The notes: generated from the letters alone by a model not told the origin. DNA of 64,000 bases from Gemmatimonadaceae bacterium (GCA_037721215.1 JBBJNV010000003.1:55646-119645), one strand, 5' to 3'; positions 1-13,764 are shown, numbered from the stretch's first letter. Translations and numbers: made by a program.

Positions 1-1137
1 GATTTTCTAGTCACTTCGCTGTTGTGTTTCGCACACCCCGGGCTTGGGTTGAAGCTGCCAAAGGTCGCGGCGAGCGACGACTTCTCGCACATACCGCTGG
101 TAGGACCGTTGCTGCAAGCAGCGGGGGCGTTTTACATCAAGCGTGGAGTAGGAGGGCCCGATCCCGAGCTGACGAGGCAGATAACCGAGCTGGTCGATGA
201 GGGGCACTCGCTCGAGTTCTATGCTGAAGGCACGCGAAGCAGGTCACGGCGTTTCCTGGCTCCAAAGCGGGGGGTTTTGCGGGCGTTGCAGCAATCAGGC
301 AAGTCGGCGGTCGTGCTTCCGCTGTCGATTACCTACGACCGGATTGCCGAGGAAGAAGGGTTTCTGCGCGAGCTCGATGGCACTGCCAAGCACAAGGGTG
401 GACTGGCTCCGCTGGCACGGTGGACCATGAAGCTGATGGGAGGAAAGATCAGGCTGGGCCGCATTCACATCAGAAGCGGCGCGGCGTTGCGTCTTGATCC
501 CGAGACGGATATCAAAGTGTTGAGTCATCGCATTGTGGCGGAGCTGCAGCAGCACACTGCGGTCACGACGTTCCATCTCCGGTCGTTCTGCCACGGCAAC
601 GCCAGGTTCGGCATCGATGCGACCGCGCTCCGCAATGCGATCGTACGACGAGGCGGTGAAGTCATCGTGAGCAAGCTCGGCGGTGAGAAAGAGGTGCCTC
701 CGCTGCTTCAGCGTACGTATGAGGGCCAATGGATGCACCTGTTCTACTCCGACGCGCGGCAGCGGGCACCGGGGAATGCAGCAGTGGCATCCCATATCCG
801 TCGCAACGGATTCTGGTTTCCGGAGAATCAGGGGTTCGACGATGAACTCACCGATACAGTGGTGGAAGCACTGTTCGAGCCCATTTGCGCGGATTACGTG
901 AGGGTTGCATACGAGGTGGAGGCAATGCCGGCAGACGCGGCGTTCAGCGCCCATGAGATAGTGGGACGAATTGCCGGAGTATTTCTGCGCGATGTGGAAG
1001 ACGCCCTCGACGACCTGACCGAACGCGGAATACTCGTTCACGAGCGCGAGATCTATCAGTGGGCGGATGGGCGTCGCGATCTTGCCGACTACCGGAACGA
1101 CTGCATGTGGCAGGCGGCGGATCTGGCGGCAAGGTAG
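1..1137 (+). CDS. PlsB/GNPAT-type glycerolipid acyltransferase, 5'-truncated by window edge
   Basis: Frame open from base 1 (DFLVTSLLCF; the D is probably the end of HxxxxD block I). Block II GAFYIKR, block III FYAEGTRSRS, then LPLSITYD. Confidence 0.85.
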   Translation, partial: DFLVTSLLCFAHPGLGLKLPKVAASDDFSHIPLVGPLLQAAGAFYIKRGVGGPDPELTRQITELVDEGHSLEFYAEGTRSRSRRFLAPKRGVLRALQQSGKSAVVLPLSITYDRIAEEEGFLRELDGTAKHKGGLAPLARWTMKLMGGKIRLGRIHIRSGAALRLDPETDIKVLSHRIVAELQQHTAVTTFHLRSFCHGNARFGIDATALRNAIVRRGGEVIVSKLGGEKEVPPLLQRTYEGQWMHLFYSDARQRAPGNAAVASHIRRNGFWFPENQGFDDELTDTVVEALFEPICADYVRVAYEVEAMPADAAFSAHEIVGRIAGVFLRDVEDALDDLTERGILVHEREIYQWADGRRDLADYRNDCMWQAADLAAR

Positions 1138-1141
1138 TGTC

Positions 1142-2173
1142 GTGAAGGAAACCCGGCCGACGTATCTGATCACTGGCGCAACCGGTTTTCTTGGTCGTCA
1201 CGTCATAGAAGCATTGAGCCGGTGCGTTCCCGATGCTCGCATCGTCGTGCTGGTTCGCGACGCTGGGGCGTGGGAGGCACAACAGTGGCGGGAATCACTG
1301 GGCGATATCGATGTGGTCACCGGCGGCTTGTTCGCAACCGCGACATGGAGCGGGAATCCCCTGCTTTCTGACCTCGACGGTATTTTTCATCTCGCTGCAG
1401 AAGTGAAGCATTCGCGGTCTGGTGTTGACGACATGGAGCGCACGAATGTCGAGGGAACGCTCGGCATGGTTCGTCTTGCAGCAGAAAAGAACTGCCGGCT
1501 GATTTTTGTCTCCACGTCGGGGGCTGTTTCCTGTTCGAGTCGGCCAGGCGAGGGTGTTTTCGAAGACGCTCCGTTTTGCGAGGACGTTGTTGGCAACTGG
1601 CCTTATTACGCATCCAAGATTCGCGCCGAGAGGGAAAGCCGGCGTCTTGCCGCTGAGCTCGGCGTCGATCTGGTGATCTTCCGACCGCCGGTACTACTGG
1701 GGCCGGGGGATCATCGCTATCGGTCCACGTCGAATGTGCTCAAGGTGTTGCGGCGGAAGCTTCCTTTCATCCTCGACGGCAACTTCAATTTCGTCGATAT
1801 CCGTGACGCGGCGACAGCGATAGTGCGCGCGATGCGCCACGCTGATCCCAAACCTGTTTATCATCTCGCGGGGACTGAGGTTACACTCGAGAATTTTTTC
1901 GGCATGATCGCGGAGCAGGCCGGGCTTGAACCATCGTGGACTAGGTTGCCGGCGCGAATGCTGTGGCATGCGGCCCGGCTGAACGCAAAGAGCCGGCTCC
2001 GGTTTCATGCCCTGCCAGATCCGGTGGTGATCGAGATGACGATGCATTACTGGGACATTCGCTCGCAGAATGCAGAGGCGGATCTCGGATATGCATCGCG
2101 CGCGCCGGAGGTAACCATTGCCGACACGGTGGCGTGGCTCCGCGCCAATCCGCCGGAGGCCGGGGGGTCATGA
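1142..2173 (+). CDS. NAD-dependent epimerase/dehydratase (extended SDR)
   Basis: GTG at 1142; TGATGFLG Rossmann motif, FHLAA, YYASK catalytic motif. Confidence 0.9.
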   Translation: MKETRPTYLITGATGFLGRHVIEALSRCVPDARIVVLVRDAGAWEAQQWRESLGDIDVVTGGLFATATWSGNPLLSDLDGIFHLAAEVKHSRSGVDDMERTNVEGTLGMVRLAAEKNCRLIFVSTSGAVSCSSRPGEGVFEDAPFCEDVVGNWPYYASKIRAERESRRLAAELGVDLVIFRPPVLLGPGDHRYRSTSNVLKVLRRKLPFILDGNFNFVDIRDAATAIVRAMRHADPKPVYHLAGTEVTLENFFGMIAEQAGLEPSWTRLPARMLWHAARLNAKSRLRFHALPDPVVIEMTMHYWDIRSQNAEADLGYASRAPEVTIADTVAWLRANPPEAGGS

Positions 2174-2934
2174 TACCGGCGATCGTTGCCGGCCTCATGG
2201 TTGTGGGAATTCCAGTTGCGGGGCTGGGGTGGTGGCTCAAGAGGCGGAAACTGCGCTACAAGCGCCACCCGATTGTTGAATTCGACGACGTACGCGCCGA
2301 TACAAGGACTGGGGACATTCTCCTTTTTCACAAGACCAGCCGGAACGGGCTGGTCGACGCGCTCGAACAGGATGTCGTATCGCCACTGTTGTTCAGTGAA
2401 AACGAATTCCGGCATTCGGGAATAATTGTGCGGAAAGACGGTGGGCTGTTTGTGATGGAATGCGCAGACCGGTTTCATTCGGGGCATGGCGAGGCGACTT
2501 ATCTGACGAAGGGAAACGGGATCCGAATCGTGCCGCTGGAAACGCTGTTGGGCGCATACAGCAGGGACAACGGGGATCCGCATTTCGGGATCAAGCACAT
2601 CTCGGAGGAGATCAGCCTCGACGCAATCGAGTCGACTATCGAACAGTTTGGCCCGATCGACTATCTGAGAATGCACCGGAGCGCCTTGGTCTTTCTGTCG
2701 TGCGCTGTTTTGCCGAAGCGGTTGCAGCCGGGGATTCTCGAGAAATATCGGAGCGAGATGATGTGTTCGGAGTTCGTGCACAGTCTGTTGAGCAAATGCG
2801 GGGTGCTCAGGGATTATCCGTCGAAGCTGTTCGCACCCTATACGATCGAGAATTCAGCGGCGTTTCGGGAGTTCGAGATCGTGAAGTACTCGGAGGTTGT
2901 GCGATTCAGGTATGGGAGGCCGACACCAGTGTAG
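2170..2934 (+). CDS. Membrane-anchored permuted papain-fold (YiiX/YebB-like NlpC/P60) protein
   Basis: ATG at 2170 overlaps the upstream stop (ATGA). N-terminal TM helix, GDILLF, His (FRHSGII) before Cys (MMCSEFV). Confidence 0.75.
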   Translation: MIPAIVAGLMVVGIPVAGLGWWLKRRKLRYKRHPIVEFDDVRADTRTGDILLFHKTSRNGLVDALEQDVVSPLLFSENEFRHSGIIVRKDGGLFVMECADRFHSGHGEATYLTKGNGIRIVPLETLLGAYSRDNGDPHFGIKHISEEISLDAIESTIEQFGPIDYLRMHRSALVFLSCAVLPKRLQPGILEKYRSEMMCSEFVHSLLSKCGVLRDYPSKLFAPYTIENSAAFREFEIVKYSEVVRFRYGRPTPV

Positions 2935-2967: not shown

Positions 2968-3390
2968 TCAGCGGGGTCGGGCCGGCGTAATTGTTGGAAC
3001 AACCTGCCGCCGGTTGCGGCGATAGACCCGAAAATCACTATCAAGCGTTACGATCGCACTCCGCGGCTCAAGTTCTGTCATCCGTACGAGACACGCATCG
3101 GCAAGCGACATCGGAACGTTCGCGAACTTACGCATGAGGCCTCGGAGCGCTTCGATTTCGGAAGACATGCGAAAGTCGATTTGTAATACGTCTTTCGCGA
3201 GAAGCTCGAATACCGCGTCCCGGCCACCGGTGAGCCGTCCGAGCAGGAAGCACGCTTCCGAAACGACAGCTTCGCAGGTAAAGACTGGTGGTGCGACCGT
3301 GGCCAGCACCCCGCGAATCCACGCATGGTGATGGTCGCGGCGGTTGAGAAGTGCAACGATGGGACCCGTATCGATGACGATCCTGGTCAC
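2968..3390 (-). CDS. vapC: PIN-domain toxin
   Basis: IVIDTGP, CEAVVSEA, SLADA, TLDSDF give the acidic PIN tetrad; 140 aa. Confidence 0.92.
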   Translation of the reverse strand: MTRIVIDTGPIVALLNRRDHHHAWIRGVLATVAPPVFTCEAVVSEACFLLGRLTGGRDAVFELLAKDVLQIDFRMSSEIEALRGLMRKFANVPMSLADACLVRMTELEPRSAIVTLDSDFRVYRRNRRQVVPTITPARPR

Positions 3391-3614
3391 TTCCCGTACA
3401 TGGTCATGTGCCTGGGATTTGTCGAAAGATCCGCCGGGCCGTCCAATGGCTTCACCAGGTTGTCGACTATCGCCGTCACCGAGCTGCTGTTGTTCGCAGC
3501 CAACCCCTCCAATGCCTGTCGAACCAGAGCAGAGCGAGTCGACCCGCGGCGGCGGGCCAGGTCGCTTAACGCCTGATCCAGCCGTTCGGGGAGTTTGAAC
3601 GAAACGGTGCGCAT
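3387..3614 (-). CDS. Ribbon-helix-helix (CopG-type) antitoxin
   Basis: MRTVSFKLPERLDQAL..STRSALVRQAL; upstream of the toxin with a 4-nt GTGA overlap. Confidence 0.9.
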   Translation of the reverse strand: MRTVSFKLPERLDQALSDLARRRGSTRSALVRQALEGLAANNSSSVTAIVDNLVKPLDGPADLSTNPRHMTMYGK

Positions 3615-3790: not shown

Positions 3791-4603
3791 CTAGAAAAAC
3801 AACAGTGACTCCCGGATTCCGGCCCAACCGACGGTCGGCCCGCGACGCTCAGGCCGCGCCAGAATCCCAAAGCGAAGCGTTGTAGACAACGAATAAGATT
3901 TGAGCGGGCCGCTGAGCCGATGTTCGAGGTCCAGTCCCATGTCCAGTCCCTGAAAACCGAACCCGGTTGTGGGCGTACCGGACGGGCCGGCGAGATCTCC
4001 AGCCCTCGCAATGGCTCTCAGCACCGCCGCAACGGTATGCACGTTCTCGACGCGATCGAACACCGTACCAGCACTCGCACTTGCACCCGCCGACGTCCAC
4101 GTCGCCTTCCGTTGTCCCACCAGACGGGCAGCATCGAACTCCAGCCGCAACGTCCGAATTCCGAGCGACTCGATCCCTACGTCGACTATTCCACGTGCTC
4201 CCAGTTCCTCGGCGTTTTTCGCGGCTTCCGGTGCGACGCGGTCGATGTTCGGATTCCAGTATTCAGCGAACCGAAGTACCAGTGAAGCCGGATGTGGAGC
4301 GCCCCGGAATGGAATCTGATAATGCAGTGCCGCCGAGTACTGATCGCCGCCCTTGAACCGCTCGCGTTCGGCCAGCGATGTCCATCCACGCACCTCCAGC
4401 TGAAGACCTCGCGCGATACTGGGGAGCGCAACCGACGCGCCTGTCTCGAGTCCCGCGGCATCGCTCAACGTTATGCCGCGCCAGTGAAGCCGCGAGTTGA
4501 CTCCCGCAGATACGCCAAGTGAATCATCGACTGGCAGACGCTGGGCAGCGAGAACATCGGCCGAGGCCGCGATTGCAACAATCGCCACAAGCGCTCGAAT
4601 CAC
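3791..4603 (-). CDS. Secreted outer-membrane beta-barrel-like protein (TorF-like putative porin)
   Basis: Signal peptide, SRLHWRGITLS, alternating beta-strand pattern, C-terminal Phe. Confidence 0.55.
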   Translation of the reverse strand: MIRALVAIVAIAASADVLAAQRLPVDDSLGVSAGVNSRLHWRGITLSDAAGLETGASVALPSIARGLQLEVRGWTSLAERERFKGGDQYSAALHYQIPFRGAPHPASLVLRFAEYWNPNIDRVAPEAAKNAEELGARGIVDVGIESLGIRTLRLEFDAARLVGQRKATWTSAGASASAGTVFDRVENVHTVAAVLRAIARAGDLAGPSGTPTTGFGFQGLDMGLDLEHRLSGPLKSYSLSTTLRFGILARPERRGPTVGWAGIRESLLFF

Positions 4604-5430
4604 CGGATGTGCCTCCGAGCTTCGATCACTGCCGGCAACCGGCGTAACAAAGCGTCAGAGATCTTCTGTTCGAGCATCCGGAACCCGTTTTCAGTGGGAT
4701 GAATTTCGTTTATCCAGTCTCTTGAACGGTCCAGCGTGCCTCGAAGGTCGATGTATATCGTAGTTGAGGGATAGGCGCGCTCGAGCGCCGCAAGCACGAC
4801 GTTGAATTCGTCGATGAACACTCTCAGAATCGCGCTCTGAAGATCGGGATTGAGGATTCCGCGTTTCTTCATCGATGGAAGTATCCATGGTCCAGCCAGC
4901 CGGAATCCGTCGTAACGAACCTTCTCGCCGGTAGCGCACAGATAATCGTAGCCGTGGACAGCGATTGGAGCATACGCGCCGAGTGCTCCGATCAGTCGCA
5001 CGTATCCGCGCCTGATATCCGTCTTTTTCTCATCCCACACAATCGCGTTGACGTGCTGGGCAGCGCTTTTCGATGAATTGTAATCCATGAGCGCGCGGTA
5101 AATCCACCGGAGCTCAGGAGCCTCGGGTATCGGTGTGAAAATATCGTTGCCGCCGCCGCTTAAGAGGATGCACTCGGGTTTTTCCTTTTTCGCGATGGCG
5201 GCGAGCAATGCGAGATTCGCGTCGGTGGTCATGTTCTCCACCGTGTCGGCGCTTCTCTCGAGACGGTTGATCGCCCACTGGCCCTCGCTCTCGAGCCAGT
5301 CGACGATGTTTGCATGCGGGGGATAGTCGAACCACGAATCCCCCTCGGTCATCAGCCGCCGGAGACCATCCCGCTTTGCGTTCCTGTAGCGCTTTCGTCG
5401 TTCCTCGGGTTCCCACGGCTCACCGGGCAT
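4600..5430 (-). CDS. SGNH/GDSL hydrolase
   Basis: EGDSWFDYP, SGGGND, NEIHPT blocks. Confidence 0.85.
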   Translation of the reverse strand: MPGEPWEPEERRKRYRNAKRDGLRRLMTEGDSWFDYPPHANIVDWLESEGQWAINRLERSADTVENMTTDANLALLAAIAKKEKPECILLSGGGNDIFTPIPEAPELRWIYRALMDYNSSKSAAQHVNAIVWDEKKTDIRRGYVRLIGALGAYAPIAVHGYDYLCATGEKVRYDGFRLAGPWILPSMKKRGILNPDLQSAILRVFIDEFNVVLAALERAYPSTTIYIDLRGTLDRSRDWINEIHPTENGFRMLEQKISDALLRRLPAVIEARRHIR

Positions 5431-5475
5431 CGATTTGCTCCGACGTTTATGTGAAAAGCACCGCGCTCGTCAGGG

Positions 5476-7812
5476 TTACATCCGAAACAGATAGCTGACC
5501 TTTCCGAAGAAGCCGTCCCTCGACCGTCTGAGATCCTGGAACCGAAACTCCTGCGGCTCTTCCAGCGTCGAGCCGTAGCCAGCGTAGACGAGCGTGCCGG
5601 GAATGGGCCGGTAGCTGAAGAGCCAGTCGACGGAGAACTCATTCGTGGTACTTCCGCGATCGAGCACACCCCGCAGGAGGACAGGGTTTCCATCTCGGTC
5701 TTCGAGTGGAGCGCGTGAGCGCGCGGCGTACTGGCCCACGAGCCGCAGGAAAATGGCGGGACTCACCTGATACTCGGTTCTTACCCGCGGAATAGTTTCG
5801 GTCGAGAATCTCGACCCAGCACCTGCCCGATCGAGTGTCAGTCGCGAGAATTGCAGCGAGCTCCGGAGTGCCGCGGTCGGTCGAACGTCGAATGCGGCGT
5901 CGATTCTGGAGCCGCGACCTGGCGATGCTTCGCGAAATATCGGCACCGCGCCCCAGCTTACACTCCCGTTTGCGCTGAACAACCGCAGCGTCGGAGTCGT
6001 CACGCGGAGCGAACCTCCCCACTGATTGTCCTCCGGCGCCGGCGTGAGGAAAGCCACGGTATCGGTCGACCCGCCTGCGACACGCTGGACCTGGAGGCCG
6101 GTGTAGACCAGTGGATCGTAGGCAAAGAATCCGCGCGATATGCCCCCACCGACCTGCCACCCGCCGCGCAGCGTCGCAGATGGCGAGATGGATTCACTCT
6201 TTTCTATCGCCGGATGGCCCTCAATTGCATTTGACCAGGTCCGCTGCAGGCCCAAAAATCCGCCGTACGTCTGGACGAGTGCACCGGGCGCTCCGTAAAA
6301 GCTGAAGCGGTTGAATGCACGCCCCTCGCGAACGCCGGTACGATTCACGAATCCCGCGGCGGCACGGAAGTCAGGATCGATATCCCTGAGGGTGTAGTTG
6401 AATCCCCAGGCGCGGCCGGTGCGGTCCCATGTTGCCTGCATGAGGGAGCCGGTGCGGCGGTCGCGCGAGCTGTCTGTCCACGACTGCGCCGCCTGCAACT
6501 GCACGTAATACAGCTTTGAGTGATAGATCCGGAGATCTGCACCGGCAAGCCGCGAATGATTGTCTCCATCTTCGCGCGCGGTGAGTACCGAGCCCATAGT
6601 GTAGTTGCGTCCAAAATCCCTCCGCAGGCGGGCGACGCCGAAGAGCGGTGTACGTGCAGAGCTGATTGAATAATCGCGATCATCGCCAACGAGCATCGCC
6701 CCGACGTTGACGCCAGCAAGCTTGCCGCCGAGCTTGAGCCCGGCCTGAGGAGCGACAATGCGCCTGGTGTAGATGAGCTGGTTCGGGGTGTCGAACAGCT
6801 CGAGTCCGTCGAGAAAGAAAGGCCGCTTTTCCGGATAGAAAAGAGCAAATCGCTCGTTGAGGAGTACCTGGCCGACATCCGCCTCGACTTGCGAAAAATC
6901 AGGATTCACAGTGGCGTTAAGGGTAAGGCTCTGGCGGATTCCCCACTTGATATCCGCTCCGACTTCCGACTGTGACCGGTATTCATGCCCGGCATCGGCT
7001 CGCGTCGCACCATCCGCCCTGCTGGTGGCAGTAGGAGTTGCTTCGAGAACGAGACCGCGCCGCATGTCGTGCAATCCTGCGAGGGTGCCTGACTGCGCGA
7101 GAAAATTCGAGCCGGCGCGAATGGCCGGTGCCCATGTGTCCTGAAATCCGGAGTGCTGCACCCGACGAAGAATGTGGATGCCCCACGACTGAGTTTTCGA
7201 TTCCTGATACCGCAGACTCTTGAACGGGATGCGGATCTCTACTTCATATCCGCCTTCCACAAGCCGTCCGCGCGAGTCAAAGACATAGTCGGGGTTGAGG
7301 TCAACCGTTCCATCGAGAGGATTGATGTTGCGCGACCCGCCGCCGGTTGCCGACGATCCTCCAGCCCCTCCCGCGAACTGCGAGCTGCGCGTGCCATCCT
7401 GCTGAACGCCAAGCGCGTTTACGCCGAACAGGAACGCAAGCTGACGGTCGTTTTCGGTATCGAGAAGAATCTGAACGTGATCTTCGCTGGCGATGTTGTC
7501 GCGGTTGGCATTGGTCGCGCGCACCACCGGGCCGTGACTCTCGCGGGCGCGAATTCCAAAATGAATTGCATCGGGGGAATACCAAACCAGAACTTCGGTT
7601 GCGTCGTCGGCCGCGCGTCCATCCACTGGCTGATACTGTGAGAACCCGGAGAGCCGGGCGGCGCGCGTCCATACCTGTTCATCAAGGCGGCCGTCAACGC
7701 TGATCGACGCATCGGCCCGCGGAGTGGCGACCTGCGTACGTTTCGCGCGGCCGTCGTAGATGAGCGACGAATCCTGAAGCAGCGACACCGCTAGCAATGC
7801 CGGGATGAGCAT
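5476..7812 (-). CDS. CBM9-like + DUF5916 outer-membrane protein
   Basis: Signal peptide, VDGRLDEQVW, NPDFSQVEAD, PEKRPFFLDG, C-terminal YLFRM. Confidence 0.88.
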   Translation of the reverse strand: MLIPALLAVSLLQDSSLIYDGRAKRTQVATPRADASISVDGRLDEQVWTRAARLSGFSQYQPVDGRAADDATEVLVWYSPDAIHFGIRARESHGPVVRATNANRDNIASEDHVQILLDTENDRQLAFLFGVNALGVQQDGTRSSQFAGGAGGSSATGGGSRNINPLDGTVDLNPDYVFDSRGRLVEGGYEVEIRIPFKSLRYQESKTQSWGIHILRRVQHSGFQDTWAPAIRAGSNFLAQSGTLAGLHDMRRGLVLEATPTATSRADGATRADAGHEYRSQSEVGADIKWGIRQSLTLNATVNPDFSQVEADVGQVLLNERFALFYPEKRPFFLDGLELFDTPNQLIYTRRIVAPQAGLKLGGKLAGVNVGAMLVGDDRDYSISSARTPLFGVARLRRDFGRNYTMGSVLTAREDGDNHSRLAGADLRIYHSKLYYVQLQAAQSWTDSSRDRRTGSLMQATWDRTGRAWGFNYTLRDIDPDFRAAAGFVNRTGVREGRAFNRFSFYGAPGALVQTYGGFLGLQRTWSNAIEGHPAIEKSESISPSATLRGGWQVGGGISRGFFAYDPLVYTGLQVQRVAGGSTDTVAFLTPAPEDNQWGGSLRVTTPTLRLFSANGSVSWGAVPIFREASPGRGSRIDAAFDVRPTAALRSSLQFSRLTLDRAGAGSRFSTETIPRVRTEYQVSPAIFLRLVGQYAARSRAPLEDRDGNPVLLRGVLDRGSTTNEFSVDWLFSYRPIPGTLVYAGYGSTLEEPQEFRFQDLRRSRDGFFGKVSYLFRM

Positions 7813-7890
7813 TGCGGGAATTTAGTGCAGTCGAGAAGCGGGCGAGTACCCTGCTTCATCCAGACGACAGGAAGAGGAGCGGGAAACCGT

Positions 7891-8200
7891 TACCACAGAT
7901 GACACAGATGGACACAGATGATGACATCCGGTTTCACTTCGTATCTCGCCATCACTGCTGCAACAAGAAAATGTGTAATTGGGAACAGCGACGCTTCACA
8001 TGCCATAGACGATACGACCTCAGACACAGATTATCTGACAGGTCCTGTGTTCGGGAACAGCCATGACAGTCGCGACGGGGTTGCCCTAATTTCAATTCTC
8101 CTGCTCAGCCAACCGACAGAAGCGAGCGCAGTTCCCTACATCTTCCCGCCGTTGCAGTTCCATCTGTGTCATCTGTGTCCATCTGCGTCATCTGTGGTTA
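7891..8200. repeat. Inverted-repeat element with tandem CACAGATG arms, copy 1
   Basis: Left arm 7891-7925 TACCACAGATGACACAGATGGACACAGATG; right arm 8161-8200 is its reverse complement; an extra GACACAGAT unit at 8023. Confidence 0.85.
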
Positions 8201-8293
8201 CCGCGCTTTATCGCGCCTACCGACAAATCTCTCTTCCCGGAACCGGACGAAGCCTCCAGAATTACCTCGAGCCATCACCCAATCGACAACCCG

Positions 8294-9649
8294 ATGAGAA
8301 TTTTTGTACTCGCCGCCGCGCTCGCCCTCCTGGCAAGCTCCTGCCGCCCCGTAGTATCGGGCCCGGCGCCTTCACCTTCGTCTCCGGTCCCCGCGCAGGC
8401 TCCGCGACAGACCATTCCGCTCACGACCACTGAAACGCAGATCCGCGATGCCGTCCGGAAGCACTACGACTCCTCGATCAGCCTGCTGCAACGCGCAGTC
8501 GATATCCCGAGCGGCACCAACAACCTGGCGGGCGTGCGGAAAGTAGGGGACCTGTTCATGGCCGAGCTGCGCGGGATCGGGTTCGAAACCCGATGGGAAA
8601 CACTGCCAGACTCGCTGCACCGCGCCGGACACCTGATTGCGGTTCGTCGCGGCACGCGTGGACCCCGGCTGCTGCTCATCGGCCACCTCGATACGGTGTT
8701 TGAGGGCGAAGGCCAGGGCTGGGTGCGTGAAGACACGATCGCGCGCGGAGCTGGCACGAGCGACATGAAGGGCGGTGATGTGTCGATGATTCTCGCACTC
8801 CGTGCCCTGGCCGATGCCGGGCAGCTAAAGGACATGCACATCACCGTGATCATGACGGGGGACGAAGAATCTGCTGGCCGGCCGATCAGCGTCTCGCGCG
8901 CCTCGCTACTCGATGCGGCCCGCCAGAGTGACCTTGCACTCGCCTTCGAGGGCGGCTCGGCCACGCGTGTGGCGATTGGCCGCCGCGGTTCCAGCAGCTG
9001 GCGTCTCGACGTAACTGGCCGGCAGGCCCACTCTGCGGGAATTTTTTCGACAGGCACCGGCTACGGTGCGGCATATGAGGGGGTGAGGATTCTTGACGAG
9101 TTCCGCCGGGCAATGGCCGGCGAGCGTGGACTCACATTCAACGTGGGTATCCTGGCCTCCGGCACTCACGTCATTGCCGATTCGTCGGGGGCAGTGGTGA
9201 CGGTCGATGGAAAATCAAACATCGTTCCACCGGTTCTTCGCGCAACCGGCGACCTGCGATTTCTAACCGAATCGCAAAAAGACTCAGCACGGGAGCGAAT
9301 GCGCGCAATCGTCTCCCGCTCGTTGTCGAACACCCAGGCGACGATCGCCTTTAGTGATGCATATCCGGCCATGGCAGTAACGCCCATCGGTGAGCGTCTG
9401 CTCGCAATCTTCGACGGCGCCAGCCAGGCTCTGGGATATCCAGCTGTGTCGTACACACCACCCGAGGAGCGGGGTGCCGGGGATATCTCTTTTGTAGCGC
9501 CGCTGATTCCGGGCATCGACGGACTGGGTGTCGATGGCGCAGGGGCGCACTCACCCCGCGAAATGGTCCGGCTTGCATCGATTAGAATGAGTGCCGAACG
9601 TGCAGCAGTGTTCATGAGCAGGCTCATGGAACAGTGGCCCAGGCGTTGA
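8294..9649 (+). CDS. M20 metallopeptidase lipoprotein (carboxypeptidase G2-like)
   Basis: Lipobox LASSC; GHLDTVF, DMKGG, GDEE, FEG, GAHSPRE. Confidence 0.92.
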   Translation: MRIFVLAAALALLASSCRPVVSGPAPSPSSPVPAQAPRQTIPLTTTETQIRDAVRKHYDSSISLLQRAVDIPSGTNNLAGVRKVGDLFMAELRGIGFETRWETLPDSLHRAGHLIAVRRGTRGPRLLLIGHLDTVFEGEGQGWVREDTIARGAGTSDMKGGDVSMILALRALADAGQLKDMHITVIMTGDEESAGRPISVSRASLLDAARQSDLALAFEGGSATRVAIGRRGSSSWRLDVTGRQAHSAGIFSTGTGYGAAYEGVRILDEFRRAMAGERGLTFNVGILASGTHVIADSSGAVVTVDGKSNIVPPVLRATGDLRFLTESQKDSARERMRAIVSRSLSNTQATIAFSDAYPAMAVTPIGERLLAIFDGASQALGYPAVSYTPPEERGAGDISFVAPLIPGIDGLGVDGAGAHSPREMVRLASIRMSAERAAVFMSRLMEQWPRR

Positions 9650-9733
9650 TCGCTGACGTTTGCCGATTCGCCGGCGTCGCGGAATGCCGATTGCTTCTCT
9701 TTACCTTTCCACACTACGCCCAAGGCAACGAGA

Positions 9734-10627
9734 ATGGATGAACAGGTACCTATCAGCAGCGACGCGATCGCCGATACCGGCAAGGAAGAAGGCGTACGCG
9801 AAGTCACTCCGGACGTCGGCTATCAGCGGCATGCTGTCGTAAACAACGTCTACGTTGGTACGCCGGGCGATAGGTCCGGAGGTTGGGTTCTGGTCGACAC
9901 CGGAGTGATCGGATCGACAGGGAGAATCGAGTCCACGGCCGGGAAACGATTCGGGAAAGACATTCCCCCGGTTGCGATCATCCTGACGCACGGGCATTCA
10001 GATCATTCCGGAACGGTGGAGGCACTCGCCGAGAAGTGGGATGTTCCCATTTATGCCCATACTCTCGAGCTTCCCTATCTCGACGGCCGCGCTTCGTATC
10101 CGCCTCCAGATACAAGTCTCGGAGGAGGGATTATGCCGAAACTCTCTCCGATGTTCGGTACAGGGCCAATCGATGTGAGCCGATGGCTGCGGGTTTTGCC
10201 CGATGACGGCAGCGTGCCCGGGATGACAGGCTGGCGCTGGCTTCACACAGCGGGCCATACGCCTGGCCATATCTCGCTATGGAGGGAGAGCGACCGCACG
10301 CTGATCGCCGGCGATGCATTCATCACTACCAACATGGAGTCGGCCTACGCCGTGATAACCCAGAAGGAAGAATTGCATGGGCCGCCAACCCCCTTCACCA
10401 CTGACTGGCCCTCGGCCCGGCGATCTGTGGAGATGCTGGCGGCGCTGCAGCCCGAAGTGGTAATAACGGGCCATGGAAGGGCAATGAAAGGGCAGCTGAT
10501 GCGCGATGCGCTGAATACTCTGGCTGGTGACTTCGACCGGATCGCCATACCGGACAAGGGACGCTACATCCGTGAACCAGTGCGCGCCGACGAGACGGGG
10601 CCGACCTATATCCCGCCTGAGCAGTAA
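9734..10627 (+). CDS. MBL-fold metallohydrolase
   Basis: THGHSDH, GHTPGH, GDA, GHG. Confidence 0.92.
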   Translation: MDEQVPISSDAIADTGKEEGVREVTPDVGYQRHAVVNNVYVGTPGDRSGGWVLVDTGVIGSTGRIESTAGKRFGKDIPPVAIILTHGHSDHSGTVEALAEKWDVPIYAHTLELPYLDGRASYPPPDTSLGGGIMPKLSPMFGTGPIDVSRWLRVLPDDGSVPGMTGWRWLHTAGHTPGHISLWRESDRTLIAGDAFITTNMESAYAVITQKEELHGPPTPFTTDWPSARRSVEMLAALQPEVVITGHGRAMKGQLMRDALNTLAGDFDRIAIPDKGRYIREPVRADETGPTYIPPEQ

Positions 10628-10632
10628 GCCTG

Positions 10633-11094
10633 ATGACGATGCTCGACAAGCTTGCGATATGTGAAGGGAAATGGCGGGGCACAAGCAGTCTCCAGCTTGA
10701 CCCCGACTCCGGCAACCTCATCGACTCCCAATCTACCGCAGTCATAACCCGCATCGCGGGTGACAGGTTTGTCCGCATCGACTATACCTGGTCGCACGAC
10801 GACAAGCCGCACGATGGGTCGTACCTGATTGGATATATAAAGGAAACAGGGGAAGTGACCGCCCACTGGGTCGACAGCTTTCACATGGGCAGCAAGGTCA
10901 TGGCGTGCATTGGTACGGCAGATGATGCCGGCGTCCTGAGCCTGCTCGGATCGTACGAGGCGCCAACGGGACCCGACTGGGGATGGCGTACGATCATCAC
11001 GCCAGAGGCCGACAGTCTTCGAATAGTGATGAACAATATCTGGCCCGAGGGGCAGGAAGATCTCGCCGTCGACGCCAGATACGTGCGGGAATAG
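10633..11094 (+). CDS. DUF1579-like protein
   Basis: GKWRG, AHWVDSFHMG, WGWRTII; beta-rich small protein. Confidence 0.75.
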   Translation: MTMLDKLAICEGKWRGTSSLQLDPDSGNLIDSQSTAVITRIAGDRFVRIDYTWSHDDKPHDGSYLIGYIKETGEVTAHWVDSFHMGSKVMACIGTADDAGVLSLLGSYEAPTGPDWGWRTIITPEADSLRIVMNNIWPEGQEDLAVDARYVRE

Positions 11095-11125
11095 GCACCG
11101 TCACTGATCTGCCGGATTAACGTTC

Positions 11126-11488
11126 ATGCCGCCGAGTCCGCTGAATCGCCTGCGCAAGCTGAGTCTTGCACTGCCTGAGGCGCACGAGGTGGAAGCGTGG
11201 GGTGAGCCAACGTTTCGCGTTCGCAACAAGATGTTCGCAATGTATGCCGCCGCAGGCAATCATCATGGACAAGGGCGGCCGGGAGTGTGGTGCAACTCGA
11301 CGCAGGTCAACCAGGATCTGCTGATTAATTCGGAGCCTGACCGCTACTTCTCTCCGCCGTACGTAGGATGCAAGGGTTGGCTGGGCATCTGGCTCGATGA
11401 CAAGCCGGATTGGAGTGCGGTCGCGGACATTCTTGCCGACGCGTGGCGGCTCAGCGCACCGAAAAGACTTCAATTATCGAGGAAATAG
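11126..11488 (+). CDS. MmcQ/YjbR family protein
   Basis: AWGEPTFRVRNKMFA, RYFSPPYVGCKGW. Confidence 0.88.
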   Translation: MPPSPLNRLRKLSLALPEAHEVEAWGEPTFRVRNKMFAMYAAAGNHHGQGRPGVWCNSTQVNQDLLINSEPDRYFSPPYVGCKGWLGIWLDDKPDWSAVADILADAWRLSAPKRLQLSRK

Positions 11489-11490
11489 TG

Positions 11491-12468
11491 ATGCTCGAGC
11501 AACGGATCTATCGCGACGTCACTGAGACGGTCGGCAACACCCCGCTCATTCAGTTGAATCGACTCGGCGCGGGACTGCCGGCGAGAATCGTCGTCAAGCA
11601 TGAGGGATTCAATCCCTTCAATTCCGTCAAGGACCGCATCGGTGCTGCGATGATCGATGATGCGGTCGAGCGCGGCGATCTCCGGCCCGGCATGGTGATC
11701 GTGGAGCCGACAAGTGGAAACACGGGAATCGGAATCGCGTACGCGGCGACTGCGCGCGGCTTCAGGTGCATTTTTACGATGCCGGAAACCATGACTGTCG
11801 AACGGCGCAACATGCTGCGCGCCCTTGGTTGCCGAGTGGTTCTCACCGAAGGTCCGAAGGGAATGAAGGGCGCGATTGCGCGTGCAGAGGAAATTCACAA
11901 ACGCCTCGGTGATCGCGCCTGGATGCCGCGACAGTTCGACAATCCGTCGAATCCAGCGATTCACTACCGCACCACGGGACCCGAGATCTGGACGGCGACG
12001 GAGGGGAAGATCGATATCTTCGTCTCGGGTGTGGGTACTGGCGGCACCATTACCGGTGCGGGGCGTTACCTGCGCGAGAAAAAACCTGGTATCCAGATCG
12101 TCGCTGTAGAGCCCGACGAGAGTCCGGTGCTTTCGGGGGGTCAGCCGTCGCCGCACAAGCAGCAGGGAATCGGCGCGGGATTTGTGCCTGGAAATCTGGA
12201 TACGAGCATCTACGACGCAGTCATCCGCGTCACGAACGATCACGCGATCGGCATGGCGCGTCGACTTGCGCGCGAGGAGGCAATTCTCGCCGGTATTTCC
12301 TCGGGCTCGATCACCTGGGCCGCGTTGGCGATTGCGGCGCGGCCTGAGAACGAGGGTAAACTCATCGTCTCGATCATCTGCGACTTTGGCGAACGGTATC
12401 TGTCCAATCCTGTTTTTGCGGAACTGGGTGACCCTGATTTCGCCGATTTCGAGGCAGCATTCGCGTAG
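11491..12468 (+). CDS. cysK: Cysteine synthase A
   Basis: SVKDRIG PLP lysine, EPTSGNTG, QFDNPSN, GVGTGGT, QGIGAGF. Confidence 0.95.
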   Translation: MLEQRIYRDVTETVGNTPLIQLNRLGAGLPARIVVKHEGFNPFNSVKDRIGAAMIDDAVERGDLRPGMVIVEPTSGNTGIGIAYAATARGFRCIFTMPETMTVERRNMLRALGCRVVLTEGPKGMKGAIARAEEIHKRLGDRAWMPRQFDNPSNPAIHYRTTGPEIWTATEGKIDIFVSGVGTGGTITGAGRYLREKKPGIQIVAVEPDESPVLSGGQPSPHKQQGIGAGFVPGNLDTSIYDAVIRVTNDHAIGMARRLAREEAILAGISSGSITWAALAIAARPENEGKLIVSIICDFGERYLSNPVFAELGDPDFADFEAAFA

Positions 12469-12485
12469 CGCCGGGAAGCTAGCCG

Positions 12486-13322: not shown

Positions 13323-13747
13323 AGGCGAAGCACGGCATGGACTCGTCCAGTGATTCTCCCTGGATATCCTATAACTTCGCAGTGCTGCGGGTGGTACCGC
13401 ACGTTCATATCGGCGCTTTCGTTCCGGTGGGTGTCGCGCTGCATGCCAGGACCGCCGAGTTTCTCGGTATCCGCGTTGTGACTGATGCCGCGGAGCTGGC
13501 AGCGCGAGCGGTGGGTGTCGACGTCGCTCTGCTCATGCGTTACCTCCAATCGTGCCAGGCAATATGCGAGGGAGACATTTCCGCGGGACCGGTGGCTCTC
13601 GCTCCGCCATCCGAACGATTCCACTGGCTCACCGCGCCGCGGTCGGACGTGATTCAGAGCGGCCCGGTGCACGAGGGAGTCTGCAAAGATCCAGCAGCAA
13701 CGCTTCAGGCGCTGTACGAAAGCGTGGTGGGAAGCCCGGCGAGATAG
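13319..13747 (+). CDS. DUF3037 protein
   Basis: YNFAVLRVVP, ERFHWLTAPRSDVIQSGPVHEG; ATGA overlap with the kinase gene. Confidence 0.88.
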   Translation: MKAKHGMDSSSDSPWISYNFAVLRVVPHVHIGAFVPVGVALHARTAEFLGIRVVTDAAELAARAVGVDVALLMRYLQSCQAICEGDISAGPVALAPPSERFHWLTAPRSDVIQSGPVHEGVCKDPAATLQALYESVVGSPAR

Positions 13748-13764
13748 CACCCGAAGCCATTGCC

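What the first reader, a model, noticed from the sequence alone, without database searches (positions are those of the whole stretch)
1..2934. Acyltransferase-SDR-permuted papain operon: candidate lipid-modification pathway
Seen: three tightly coupled genes (4-nt gap, ATGA overlap). Established: PlsB/GNPAT-type enzymes acylate glycerol-3-phosphate or DHAP; permuted NlpC/P60 proteins include LRAT-like acyltransferases/phospholipases; acyltransferase plus reductase combinations underlie ether-lipid synthesis in myxobacteria and eukaryotes. Inference: an unusual membrane-lipid pathway (ether, N-acyl or remodelling). The upstream part lies outside the window.
Basis: partly seen in the sequence, partly recalled or inferred. 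Interest (0 to 1): 0.55.

Follow-up and report, generated by a model that had tools for sequence, protein, structure and literature searches.

The report
Ether-lipid operon with extra papain-fold enzyme
The three genes are the tail of a four-gene operon for making ether-linked membrane lipids by the route used by animals and myxobacteria, here in a Gemmatimonadota bacterium, and its last gene is a conserved, uncharacterised lipid-type cysteine enzyme that the known versions of the pathway lack.

Summary
Observation confirmed. Window 1-1137 is the C-terminal acyltransferase part of an 880-aa protein. A 4-nt gap leads to a GTG-started extended SDR (1142-2173), and an ATGA overlap leads to a 254-aa protein (2170-2934).

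The upstream sequence supports the ether-lipid reading. The 880-aa protein is a fatty-acyl reductase/GNPAT-type fusion (FARAT). It is preceded, again with an ATGA overlap, by an alkyl-DHAP synthase: 497 bits to guinea-pig AGPS, with Arg, Tyr and the HHH loop kept. This is the gene order of the M. xanthus MXAN_1676-1675-1674 operon.

The third protein has a YiiX/YaeF-type permuted papain fold (3kw0 Z 11.3, 2if6 Z 10.7). His82, Glu97 and Cys199 are invariant. It has no Pfam hit.

In all 23 Gemmatimonadota loci examined it lies next to FARAT, FARAT-SDR or AGPS, in three gene arrangements. A PIP-synthase-like gene is present wherever the flank allows. Here a Tam41-like CDP-DAG synthase also lies alongside. 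The genome has a PEDS1-like desaturase and an inositol-phosphate synthase elsewhere.

The likely product is an alkyl (or alkenyl)-acyl inositol phospholipid. The papain-fold enzyme probably handles an acyl chain in this pathway, perhaps the sn-2 acylation; that step is inferred, not shown.

Verdict: a new variant of a known pathway. Interest 0.55.

The parts
1..1137 (+). C-terminal 378 codons of an 880-aa FAR-GNPAT fusion (FARAT). The whole gene is G000:C5:54140-56782. The window begins at the Asp of the HX4D acyltransferase motif (HRSYMD). Motif II GAFYIKR is at 124-144 and motif III FYAEGTRS at 217-240.
   Evidence: Pfam NAD_binding_4 (188 bits, residues 12-280) plus Acyltransferase PF01553 (65 bits, 487-612) on the full protein. 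PlsB-like partial matches. Motifs read from the translations.
1142..2173 (+). Extended SDR of 343 aa with a GTG start, a TGATGFLG NAD(P)-binding motif (1172-1195) and YYASK (YxxxK). Candidate 1-alkyl-DHAP (C2 keto) reductase.
   Evidence: Pfam Epimerase 92 bits and NAD_binding_4 78 bits. HpnA model 143 bits, far below its 368 cut-off; thioester-reductase domain 102 bits. Best solved relatives are 3wj7, dihydroflavonol and cinnamoyl-CoA reductases and the AusA reductase domain. Near AGPS-FARAT in 13 loci including this one. Matches at E <= 1e-30 in only 2 of 300 sampled genomes of the phylum, one of them next to a FARAT.
2170..2934 (+). PPP: a 254-aa YiiX/YaeF-type permuted papain-fold (NlpC/P60) protein with an N-terminal hydrophobic helix (residues 2-22, window 2173-2235) followed by a basic stretch KRRKLRYKRH.
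   Evidence: No Pfam or NCBIfam hit. Profile against PDB: 3kw0 at E 2e-4. AF2 model with pLDDT 81.6. Foldseek: 3kw0 and 2if6 at probability 1.0. VIA-align: Z 11.3 and 10.7. Linked to AGPS/FARAT in all loci examined.
2413..2415 (+). Codon of His82 (FRHSG), the proposed catalytic histidine of PPP.
   Evidence: Invariant in 32 close homologues and in the alignment of 26 sequences that includes 22 distant ones. Aligns with the FSHTG histidine of 3kw0, which by position I equate with catalytic His49 of BcPPNE (PMC3142127).
2458..2460 (+). Codon of Glu97 (VMECA), the proposed third residue of the triad.
   Evidence: Invariant in A1 and at least 90% conserved in A2. Aligns with the Glu of the MES segment of 3kw0, which by position I equate with Glu64 of BcPPNE (PMC3142127).
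2764..2766 (+). Codon of Cys199 (MMCSEFVH), the proposed nucleophile. It lies C-terminal to the His, which is the permuted order.
   Evidence: Invariant in both alignments. Aligns with the ICSEFV cysteine of 3kw0, which by position I equate with catalytic Cys154 of BcPPNE (PMC3142127).

Best explanation
Window 1-2934 is the 3' half of a four-gene, translationally coupled operon: AGPS, FARAT, SDR, PPP. It builds 1-O-alkyl glycerophospholipids by the eukaryote/myxobacterial route.

Proposed steps, with their status:
- The FAR domain of FARAT reduces an activated fatty acid to a fatty alcohol (domain shown, activity inferred).
- The GNPAT-type domain of FARAT makes 1-acyl-DHAP (motifs shown, DHAP specificity inferred).
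- AGPS swaps the acyl chain for the alcohol to give 1-alkyl-DHAP (orthology and active-site residues shown).
- The SDR reduces the C2 keto group to give 1-alkyl-G3P (inferred from linkage, and from a non-homologous SDR at the same position in a related operon).
- PPP, a YiiX-type Cys-His-Glu enzyme, sits at the cytoplasmic face of the membrane (topology inferred from the basic stretch after the helix). It forms an acyl-thioester on Cys199 and moves or removes a fatty acyl chain on a pathway intermediate. The most likely reaction is acylation of sn-2 of 1-alkyl-G3P, which is the only step between DHAP and the finished phospholipid with no enzyme in the cluster (inferred).
- The divergently transcribed Tam41-like CDP-DAG synthase and PIP-synthase-like transferase then activate the lipid and attach inositol phosphate (folds and families shown, substrates inferred).
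- A PEDS1-like desaturase encoded elsewhere in the genome may convert the alkyl lipids to plasmalogens.
For: - AGPS: 497 bits over residues 37-599 to guinea-pig AGPS 4bby, against 93 bits for the best non-AGPS flavoenzyme. Arg419, Tyr578 and His615-617 are kept in the printed alignment.
- FARAT: NAD_binding_4 plus PF01553, with HX4D and motifs II and III present.
- The gene order AGPS, FAR-GNPAT fusion, NAD-epimerase-family protein is that of M. xanthus MXAN_1676-1675-1674, whose AGPS gene contributes to ether-lipid synthesis (PMC9131029, PMC13012113).
- PPP fold and triad.
- Permuted NlpC/P60 enzymes handle fatty acyl groups. YiiX crystallised with a bound fatty acid (PMC3142127). LnsA acts in lipoprotein N-acylation (PMC7387801). 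Tox-Act1 is a phospholipase (PMC12994826).
- Linkage: PPP lies next to FARAT, FARAT-SDR or AGPS in 23 of 23 loci, in three arrangements.
- The PIP-synthase-like gene is present in 17 of 17 PPP loci with upstream flank, and in none of three PPP-less AGPS loci.
- Tam41 fold for the 349-aa neighbour: 7ecd at E 1e-7, probability 1.0.
- PIP-synthase-like scores of 127 and 106 bits.
- PEDS1-like gene (187 bits) and inositol-1-phosphate synthase (115 bits) in the same genome.
- G277 has a classical adh_short SDR right after FARAT, which suggests a reductase is wanted at that position.
Against: - No enzyme activity or lipid was measured, and the organism is known only from its assembly.
- M. xanthus, eukaryotes and three other Gemmatimonadota AGPS-FARAT operons work without PPP. 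PPP is therefore not needed for the core chemistry, and the housekeeping PlsC may do the sn-2 acylation.
- PPP tracks the PIP-synthase-like gene as tightly as it tracks AGPS, so it may act after the head group is attached.
- Characterised YiiX-like and related enzymes include hydrolases as well as transferases.
- The hydrophobic N-terminal helix is present in only about 13 of 32 close homologues.
- The PIP-synthase scores are below the curated cut-offs of 170-180 bits.
- The Tam41-like gene adjoins the cluster in only 4 loci.
- The SDR is missing from the 8 kb held upstream of PPP in L003.
Confidence: 0.55

Rival explanations
1. PPP is a hydrolase in the same pathway, not a transferase. It would be a phospholipase A, lysophospholipase, acyl-DHAP esterase or acyl thioesterase that removes ester-linked chains. 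That would channel the pool towards ether species or supply free fatty acid or acyl donors.
For: It has the same fold and triad as enzymes with hydrolytic activity: Tox-Act1 cleaves PG and PE (PMC12994826), and YiiX was proposed to be a fatty-acyl amidase (PMC3142127). The operon linkage fits this reading equally well. Core ether-lipid operons work without PPP.
Against: A constitutive cytoplasmic phospholipase co-translated with biosynthetic enzymes would be costly. LRAT/PLAAT and LnsA show that the fold also supports acyl transfer. The cluster has no other candidate for sn-2 acylation.
Confidence: 0.25
2. PPP acts after head-group attachment, on the inositol lipid. It might acylate the inositol ring, or remodel the acyl chains of PI or PIP. 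It would then belong with the PIP-synthase-like gene and not with AGPS-FARAT.
For: PPP and the PIP-synthase-like gene co-occur in 17 of 17 loci with flank, and both are missing from the three PPP-less AGPS loci. Arg119 is invariant and Lys219 is kept in at least 90% of the aligned relatives; I take these as possible binders of an anionic head group, which is inference only.
Against: In 19 of the 23 loci PPP lies directly downstream of FARAT or of FARAT-SDR. The giant-virus relatives examined show no inositol-lipid genes nearby.
Confidence: 0.12
3. PPP has no role in lipid synthesis. It would be, for example, a peptide, protein or cell-wall amidase that sits beside the operon by descent.
For: The NlpC/P60 superfamily is best known for cell-wall hydrolases. 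All PPP-bearing loci come from one clade of one phylum, so they are not independent observations.
Against: Linkage survives three different gene arrangements, including a divergent one. An ATGA overlap couples its translation to the SDR. No signal peptide was seen, and many homologues have a hydrophilic N-terminus, which argues for a cytoplasmic enzyme. Its closest folds are the lipid-binding YiiX type, not canonical P60. PPP was not found in 300 other sampled genomes of the phylum, so it is not a housekeeping enzyme.
Confidence: 0.06

Closest known systems
[quoted passage not shown]
   Same: Same three protein types in the same order. The AGPS scores 497 bits against mammalian AGPS with its active-site residues kept. 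FAR and GNPAT are fused into one polypeptide. The genome also holds a PEDS1/CarF-family desaturase.
   Different: A fourth, translationally coupled gene (PPP) that is not described for the three-gene M. xanthus operon. A PIP-synthase-like head-group gene is always attached, and sometimes a Tam41-like CDP-DAG synthase too. The host phylum is Gemmatimonadota. I could not compare directly with the M. xanthus sequences, because none was available to the tools.
YiiX/YaeF-like permuted papain-fold NlpC/P60 enzymes (Pfam PF05708 Peptidase_C92; PDB 3kw0 BcPPNE and 2if6 E. coli YiiX)
   Same: Best structural matches: Z 11.3 and 10.7, Foldseek probability 1.0. The order His, Glu, Cys is permuted, and the motifs FxHxGI and CSEF align. 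A GD motif lies near the start of the domain.
   Different: PPP itself gives no PF05708 match, and its distant relatives reach only 15-21 bits against a cut-off of 27. It is about 60 residues longer, with an N-terminal helix and family-specific motifs (HSG, DNGDPHFG, YPSKLF). It forms a small separate family of 96 cluster representatives among 1.84 billion. It has an operon context that points to a pathway, which YiiX lacks.
LRAT / PLAAT (HRASLS) acyltransferase-phospholipases
   Same: Permuted NlpC/P60 core, a Cys-His acyl-thioester mechanism, membrane anchoring and phospholipid substrates.
   Different: Only a weak structural match (PLAAT4 Z 5.0 over 98 residues). The anchor is N-terminal, whereas I recall the LRAT/PLAAT anchor as C-terminal. 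The motif is CSEF, whereas I recall NCEHF for LRAT/PLAAT. Both recalled features are from memory, not tested here.
Staphylococcus aureus LnsA of the LnsAB lipoprotein N-acylation system (PMC7387801)
   Same: A bacterial YiiX-like permuted enzyme with a genetically shown role in an acyl-transfer reaction. This is a precedent for biosynthetic acyl transfer by this fold.
   Different: LnsA is exported and acts on lipoprotein N-termini together with a CPBP-family partner. PPP is probably cytoplasmic and has no such partner nearby.
Tam41 (mitochondrial and Firmicutes CDP-DAG synthase; PDB 6ig4, 7ecd), compared with the neighbouring 349-aa gene
   Same: Best fold matches, with probability 1.0 and TM 0.57-0.64 normalised to the target. 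It has a GS...D nucleotidyltransferase motif and lies next to a CDP-alcohol phosphatidyltransferase.
   Different: No sequence-level match to any Pfam, NCBIfam or PDB entry. Activity was not tested.

Membership tests
Alkyl-DHAP synthase (AGPS, EC 2.5.1.26), for the upstream gene G000:C5:52299-54143 | FAD_binding_4 plus FAD-oxidase_C architecture, with full-length similarity to solved AGPS well above other VAO-family flavoenzymes | tested here: met
   Pfam 122 and 132 bits. 4bby 497 bits and 2uuu 262 bits, against 93 bits for glycolate oxidase.
Alkyl-DHAP synthase (AGPS, EC 2.5.1.26), for the upstream gene G000:C5:52299-54143 | Active-site Arg419, Tyr578 and the His615-His617 loop (guinea-pig numbering; the roles of these residues are recalled from the AGPS structure paper, not read here) | tested here: met
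   In the printed alignment ASIRL aligns with asvrl, CIYFY with ciyfy, and SHHHGVGKLR with shhhgvgklr. I counted positions from the chain numbering.
FARAT (fatty acyl reductase fused to a GNPAT-type acyltransferase) | N-terminal NAD_binding_4 reductase domain and C-terminal PF01553 acyltransferase domain in one polypeptide | tested here: met
   Residues 12-280 (188 bits) and 487-612 (65 bits) of the 880-aa protein.
FARAT (fatty acyl reductase fused to a GNPAT-type acyltransferase) | Acyltransferase motifs HX4D, GxxFIxR-like and FxEGTR; reductase motifs TGxxGxxG and YxxxK | tested here: met
   HRSYMD, GAFYIKR, FYAEGTRS, TGVTGFVG and YTLTK, read from the translation.
FARAT (fatty acyl reductase fused to a GNPAT-type acyltransferase) | Uses DHAP, not glycerol-3-phosphate, as acyl acceptor | not testable with these tools
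   Inferred only from the coupling to AGPS, whose substrate is acyl-DHAP.
M. xanthus-type AGPS operon (MXAN_1676-1674) | [quoted passage not shown] | tested here: met
   compared with the description in PMC9131029. Sequence-level orthology to the M. xanthus proteins was not tested.
YiiX/YaeF-like permuted NlpC/P60 (Pfam PF05708 Peptidase_C92) | Match to the Pfam model above its gathering score (27 bits) | tested here: not met
   No PF05708 hit for PPP at E <= 0.1. Distant family members reach only 15-21 bits.
YiiX/YaeF-like permuted NlpC/P60 (Pfam PF05708 Peptidase_C92) | Papain-like alpha+beta fold superposable on solved YiiX-type structures | tested here: met
   3kw0_A Z 11.3 (166 residues, rmsd 3.6); 2if6_B Z 10.7. 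Foldseek E 5e-6 to 9e-5, probability 1.0. Model pLDDT 81.6.
YiiX/YaeF-like permuted NlpC/P60 (Pfam PF05708 Peptidase_C92) | Permuted catalytic order: His, then an acidic residue, then Cys near the C-terminus, all conserved | tested here: met
   His82 and Cys199 are invariant in both alignments. Glu97 is invariant in A1 and at least 90% conserved in A2. They align to the FSHTG, MES and ICSEFV segments of 3kw0. I equate these by position with the His49, Glu64 and Cys154 named in PMC3142127.
YiiX/YaeF-like permuted NlpC/P60 (Pfam PF05708 Peptidase_C92) | Conserved oxyanion-type tyrosine (Tyr127 in BcPPNE, Tyr115 in YiiX) | tested here: inconclusive
   Tyr165 is invariant among close homologues but not across the distant ones. 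The profile alignment does not pair it with a tyrosine. I could not inspect the model coordinates.
LRAT/PLAAT family | Close structural and sequence similarity to LRAT/PLAAT catalytic domains | tested here: inconclusive
   PLAAT4 reaches only Z 5.0 over 98 residues. No Pfam LRAT hit.
Hopanoid-associated sugar epimerase HpnA (TIGR03466), considered for the SDR | Score above the curated cut-off (367.65 bits) | tested here: not met
   143 bits.
Extended SDR | N-terminal TGxxGxxG and catalytic YxxxK | tested here: met
   TGATGFLG and YYASK in the translation. Pfam Epimerase 92 bits.
Acyl/alkyl-DHAP reductase activity (EC 1.1.1.101), considered for the SDR | NADPH-dependent reduction of 1-alkyl-DHAP | not testable with these tools
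   Only contextual support. Matches at E <= 1e-30 occur in 2 of 300 other sampled genomes, and one of them sits next to a FARAT. A non-homologous adh_short SDR sits after FARAT in G277.
Phosphatidylinositol-phosphate synthase (NF045883 / NF040950), considered for the neighbouring CDP-alcohol phosphatidyltransferase | Score above the curated cut-off (170 / 180 bits) | tested here: not met
   106.5 and 127 bits for the G000 protein; 147.6 and 141.3 bits for the L005 homologue. These are the best-scoring families by far, so I call the protein PIP-synthase-like only.
Tam41 CDP-DAG synthase, considered for the neighbouring 349-aa protein | Tam41 fold | tested here: met
   7ecd E 1e-7 with TM 0.54 (query) and 0.64 (target); 6ig4 and 6ig2 at probability 1.0; the next matches are aminoglycoside nucleotidyltransferases at TM about 0.3. 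Model pLDDT 82.8.
Tam41 CDP-DAG synthase, considered for the neighbouring 349-aa protein | Sequence-level family match (Pfam or PDB) | tested here: not met
   No hit at E <= 10. A profile gives only a generic nucleotidyltransferase at E 0.017.

The most novel reading that the evidence does not exclude
PPP founds a distinct family of membrane-associated YiiX-type acyltransferases, shared by some Gemmatimonadota, giant viruses and a few protists. In bacteria it would be the dedicated enzyme that puts the sn-2 acyl chain on 1-O-alkyl-glycerol-3-phosphate, possibly by CoA-independent transacylation from diacyl phospholipids. That would complete a self-contained cassette for ether-linked inositol phospholipids, and would give the first pathway-level function to a YiiX/YaeF-type enzyme.
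Probability: 0.25. Interest if true: 0.7.

Novelty: new variant of a known kind. Interest (0 to 1): 0.55.

Why it matters
The AGPS/FARAT route to ether lipids and plasmalogens is under active study as a pathway shared by myxobacteria and eukaryotes (PMC13012113). This locus shows a Gemmatimonadota form of it, packaged with its own head-group genes and an extra enzyme.

Bacterial YiiX/YaeF-type permuted papain enzymes are widespread, and their functions remain poorly understood (PMC7387801). A member locked into a defined biosynthetic operon offers a direct way to assign one a substrate. The experiment is simple: express the operon with and without PPP and run lipidomics.

If the product is an alkyl-acyl inositol lipid, soil Gemmatimonadota would become a possible source of environmental ether lipids. 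The same enzyme family in giant viruses would then gain a testable function.

Tried and rejected
- PPP gave nothing in Pfam or NCBIfam, even at E 0.1. Only a family profile and the fold identified it.
- A search for longer, fused forms of PPP found none. The tool itself says this is weak evidence.
- The idea that PPP is common in the phylum was rejected: not found in 300 other sampled genomes, including 5 of the same genus. It was found in about 18 species genomes of the GTDB set, all Gemmatimonadota. That scan used two peptide patterns, so it misses divergent members.
- The idea that the SDR is a sugar-nucleotide epimerase or HpnA was rejected on score, on its solved relatives and on its distribution.
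- The idea that the operon makes wax esters or alcohols only was rejected, because a true AGPS is translationally coupled to FARAT.
- The 349-aa neighbour gave no sequence hit anywhere. Only the structure prediction showed the Tam41 fold.
- The promoter and terminator scan was uninformative. Promoter-like sites were at shuffle level, and the excess of terminator-like sites lay inside genes.
- Literature searches for ether lipids in Gemmatimonadota found nothing relevant in the library held here. The supplement of PMC13012113, which lists the non-myxobacterial phyla, is not held.
- Earlier notes of this scan near this place, or similar to PPP, were unrelated.
- I could not obtain the M. xanthus or Tetrahymena protein sequences through the tools. 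Orthology to them therefore rests on domain architecture and on the papers' descriptions.


Full report
**1. The observation**

The window starts inside a gene.
- Frame 1 is open from base 1 to the TAG at 1135-1137.
- Four bases later a GTG at 1142 opens a 343-codon frame that ends with TGA at 2171-2173.
- The ATG at 2170 overlaps that stop (ATGA) and opens a 254-codon frame that ends at 2934.

The only detail to add is that the middle gene starts with GTG. Downstream lies a convergent PIN/ribbon-helix-helix (VapBC-type) pair at 2968-3614, so the operon ends at 2934.

**2. What lies upstream**

The window is G000:C5:55646-119645. I fetched 12 kb upstream (L002).
- Gene 1 is the last 378 codons of an 880-aa protein. 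Its N-terminus is a NAD_binding_4 ("male sterility") fatty-acyl reductase domain (188 bits). Residues 487-612 are a PF01553 acyltransferase.
- The reductase motifs TGVTGFVG and YTLTK are present. So are the acyltransferase motifs HRSYMD (HX4D), GAFYIKR and FYAEGTRS. The window begins exactly at the Asp of HX4D.
- The start of this gene overlaps, again by ATGA, the stop of a 614-aa FAD_binding_4/FAD-oxidase_C protein.
- That protein scores 497 bits against guinea-pig alkyl-DHAP synthase (4bby) over residues 37-599, and 262 bits against the Dictyostelium enzyme. The best non-AGPS flavoenzyme reaches only 93 bits.
- In the printed alignment the residues at guinea-pig positions Arg419, Tyr578 and His615-617 are all kept. 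Their catalytic roles are from my memory of the AGPS structure work; the numbering agrees with the chain.

The unit is therefore AGPS, FAR-GNPAT fusion (FARAT), SDR and the 254-aa protein, with overlaps or a 4-nt gap at every junction.

**3. Comparison with the known pathway**

M. xanthus has a three-gene operon:
- MXAN_1676, an AGPS about 42% identical to the human enzyme;
[quoted passage not shown] Loss of MXAN_1676 reduces ether lipids slightly, because ElbD carries the main flux (PMC9131029). FAR-GNPAT fusions (FARAT) are also the usual eukaryotic form outside animals. The full set of four enzymes including PEDS1 was found in 73 bacterial genomes, 61 of them Myxococcota (PMC13012113).

The first three genes here have the same architecture and order. 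G000 also has a PF10520 desaturase of the PEDS1/CarF family (187 bits) as a stand-alone gene on contig C40. So the genome holds the signature set for aerobic plasmalogen synthesis. I could not tell PEDS1 from FAD4-type members of that family.

**4. The SDR**

- It has TGATGFLG and YYASK.
- It scores 92 bits for Pfam Epimerase and 78 for NAD_binding_4. It reaches 143 bits on the HpnA model, far below the 368 cut-off.
- Its nearest solved relatives are carbonyl and thioester reductases: 3wj7, dihydroflavonol and cinnamoyl-CoA reductases, and the AusA reductase domain.
- Among 300 other sampled genomes of the phylum, only two have a match at E <= 1e-30. The 50%-identical one (G295) lies directly after a FARAT.
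- In another genome (G277) a non-homologous classical SDR (adh_short) occupies the position after FARAT.

This fits a pathway-specific reductase. The obvious role is 1-alkyl-DHAP to 1-alkyl-G3P, but that is inference.

**5. The 254-aa protein (PPP)**

No Pfam or NCBIfam model matches it.
- It has over 150 close homologues at 53-92% identity. All those that carry a name are "hypothetical protein" from Gemmatimonadales or Gemmatimonadaceae MAGs.
- A profile of 32 of them hits one solved protein, 3kw0, at E 2e-4. This is the B. cereus YiiX-like "cysteine peptidase". The alignment pairs KTGDI, FRHSGI and MMCSEFV with the corresponding motifs of 3kw0.
- An AlphaFold model (pLDDT 81.6) matches 3kw0 and E. 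coli YiiX 2if6 with Foldseek probability 1.0.
- In an independent all-against-representatives alignment it gives Z 11.3 and 10.7. TseH (7.1), a DUF862 desumoylase (5.9) and PLAAT4 (5.0) follow.
- The catalytic residues of BcPPNE are Cys154, His49, Glu64 and Tyr127, and YiiX holds a fatty acid in a hydrophobic S1 tunnel (PMC3142127).
- In PPP, His82, Glu97 and Cys199 align to the His, Glu and Cys segments of 3kw0, which by position I equate with that triad. They are invariant in the close family, and in the alignment that includes distant relatives His and Cys are invariant and Glu is at least 90% conserved.
- The tyrosine equivalent is unresolved.

So "permuted papain" is right. The nearest type is YiiX/YaeF, not LRAT.

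Residues 2-22 are hydrophobic and are followed by KRRKLRYKRH, which suggests an N-out anchor with a cytoplasmic catalytic domain. Only about 13 of the 32 close homologues have such a helix. The rest begin hydrophilic, and I saw no signal peptide in any.

**6. Linkage**

I fetched loci around homologues from metagenomes and from GTDB species genomes. I then mapped the G000 proteins onto them by tblastn. Every locus with enough flank, 23 including G000, has PPP beside the ether-lipid genes. There are three arrangements:
- (A) PIPS-like transferase, AGPS, FARAT, SDR, PPP;
- (B) SDR, two unrelated genes on the other strand, then PIPS-like transferase, AGPS, FARAT, PPP;
- (C) Tam41-like and PIPS-like genes on one strand, SDR-FARAT-AGPS on the other, and PPP divergent from AGPS.

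In 16 loci PPP follows FARAT directly, with no SDR in between. Linkage that survives these rearrangements argues for a shared function. All loci belong to one clade of one phylum, however, so they are not independent samples.

PPP is rare. It was not found in 300 other sampled genomes of the phylum, including five of the same genus. It was found in about 18 species genomes of the GTDB set. Three of the 300 have more distant AGPS-FARAT operons (40-58% identity) without PPP. Two of these begin with a PEDS1-like gene, one has the adh_short SDR, and one has the extended SDR. PPP is therefore an addition found in one operon clade, not part of the core chemistry.

**7. The other constant partner and the head group**

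A CDP-alcohol phosphatidyltransferase is present in all 17 PPP loci with upstream flank. It is absent from the three PPP-less AGPS loci. Its best families by far are archaetidylinositol-phosphate and phosphatidylinositol-phosphate synthases. It scores 127 and 106 bits here, and 148 and 141 bits in L005. All are below the curated cut-offs of 170-180 bits.

In G000 it is co-transcribed, divergently from AGPS, with a 349-aa protein that matches nothing by sequence. A model of that protein (pLDDT 82.8) matches Tam41 CDP-DAG synthases: 7ecd at E 1e-7, and 6ig4 and 6ig2, all at probability 1.0. These stand well above the generic nucleotidyltransferases that follow.

The Tam41-like gene is itself patchy. 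It was found in 8 of 40 other genomes of the family, and that tally includes the unpublished genomes G326 and G157. It adjoins the ether cluster in 4 loci. G000 also encodes a myo-inositol-1-phosphate synthase (115 bits).

Taken together, the neighbourhood can supply every step from DHAP and an activated fatty acid to an inositol-phosphate head group, except acylation of sn-2.

**8. Mechanism proposed**

- Shown: gene identities, motifs, folds and linkage.
- Inferred: the order of reactions given under Best explanation, and a role for PPP as an acyl-thioester enzyme acting on a pathway lipid.

The "missing step" argument favours sn-2 acylation of 1-alkyl-G3P. Precedents for acyl transfer by this fold are LRAT/PLAAT and LnsA (PMC7387801). 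The argument is weakened because PPP-less operons, M. xanthus and eukaryotes presumably rely on ordinary AGPAT/PlsC enzymes. A relative, Tox-Act1, is a phospholipase (PMC12994826). So hydrolysis or remodelling, or action on the finished inositol lipid, remain live rivals.

**9. Genomic setting**

In two congeners the flanking ABC-F ATPase and DUF5916 genes lie 1.7-2.3 kb apart. In G000 they are 12.1 kb apart, and in a third congener 22.5 kb apart. None of the five congeners has FARAT, SDR or PPP. The cluster thus sits in a variable region next to a toxin-antitoxin pair. This fits gain by transfer or differential loss. GC content is unremarkable.

**10. Wider relatives of PPP**

An exhaustive profile search found only 96 cluster representatives among 1.84 billion. 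Beyond the Gemmatimonadota group come full-length, collinear relatives at 22-32% identity. Nearly all of those aligned have an N-terminal hydrophobic helix, and they share KTGDIILF, GHxG, ECx, GGxRI, CxEF and YPSKLFWP.
- One is a Tupanvirus deep ocean protein.
- Another is from a 566-kb "uncultured virus" contig.
- One is from the protist Flectonema.
- Two sit on contigs with Erv1/Alr and ankyrin genes.
- The protein-atlas search gives Nucleocytoviricota and oomycete clusters as nearest.

These viral loci show no ether-lipid genes. I did not root a tree, so I make no claim about the direction of transfer.

**11. Verdict**

The pathway is a known kind. What is new is the constant fourth enzyme of the YiiX type, the attached inositol-type head-group genes, the Tam41-like neighbour and the host phylum. 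The library of papers held here contains no report of ether lipids in Gemmatimonadota.

Novelty: new variant of a known kind. Interest 0.55.

Noticed in passing
G000:C5:51077-52126 (minus strand; 3.5-4.6 kb upstream of window base 1; L002 7432-8481): A 349-aa protein with no sequence match in Pfam, NCBIfam or PDB, whose AlphaFold model matches Tam41 CDP-DAG synthases (7ecd, 6ig4) at probability 1.0. It is co-transcribed with a PIP-synthase-like CDP-alcohol phosphatidyltransferase (G000:C5:50340-51155). It was found in 8 of 40 other genomes of the family; that tally includes the unpublished genomes G326 and G157.
   Followed up: partly
Proteins P0126-P0169 and P0136 (Tupanvirus deep ocean, YP_010780558.1); loci L028 and L030: The nearest relatives of the papain-fold protein outside Gemmatimonadota are giant-virus proteins of the same length, nearly all with an N-terminal hydrophobic helix, at 22-32% identity. 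A diplonemid transcript (Flectonema) also belongs. A Euglena respiratory supercomplex subunit (8iuf_E7) matches the fold at Z 7.2. No ether-lipid genes lie near the viral copies.
   Followed up: partly
L038 (G277:C6) 7273-13115 and L039 (G088:C6) 9849-14702: Other Gemmatimonadota carry a different operon: PEDS1-like desaturase, AGPS, FARAT, and in G277 also a classical adh_short SDR. Here the plasmalogen desaturase is physically linked to the ether-lipid genes, and there is no papain-fold gene or PIP-synthase-like gene.
   Followed up: partly
G000:C40:21937-22674 (L040 7938-8675): A stand-alone PEDS1/CarF-family lipid desaturase (PF10520, 186 bits). It lies after a DEAD-box helicase gene and convergent with a 2-oxoacid dehydrogenase E1-type gene. 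The same family was found in 2 of 5 other genomes that carry the papain-fold gene.
   Followed up: partly
window 2968-3614, minus strand: A PIN-domain gene (2968-3390) overlapping a ribbon-helix-helix gene (3387-3614). This is a VapBC-type toxin-antitoxin pair, convergent with the end of the operon.
   Followed up: no
window 3791-7812 and G000:C5:47341-49017: The cluster lies in a variable region. The flanking ABC-F ATPase and DUF5916/CBM9 genes are 12.1 kb apart here, 1.7-2.3 kb apart in two congeners and 22.5 kb apart in a third. The relative orientation of the two genes also differs between these genomes.
   Followed up: partly
window 4600-5430, minus strand: A 276-aa protein with a sub-threshold GDSL-like lipase/acylhydrolase match (27 bits against a cut-off of 32.9), followed on the same strand by a 270-aa protein with no family match (3791-4603). 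Both are within 3 kb of the lipid operon. Whether they are related to it is unknown.
   Followed up: no
G000:C29:13697-14035: A myo-inositol-1-phosphate synthase domain (PF01658, 115 bits) in a 481-codon open frame. It would supply the substrate for a PIP synthase.
   Followed up: no
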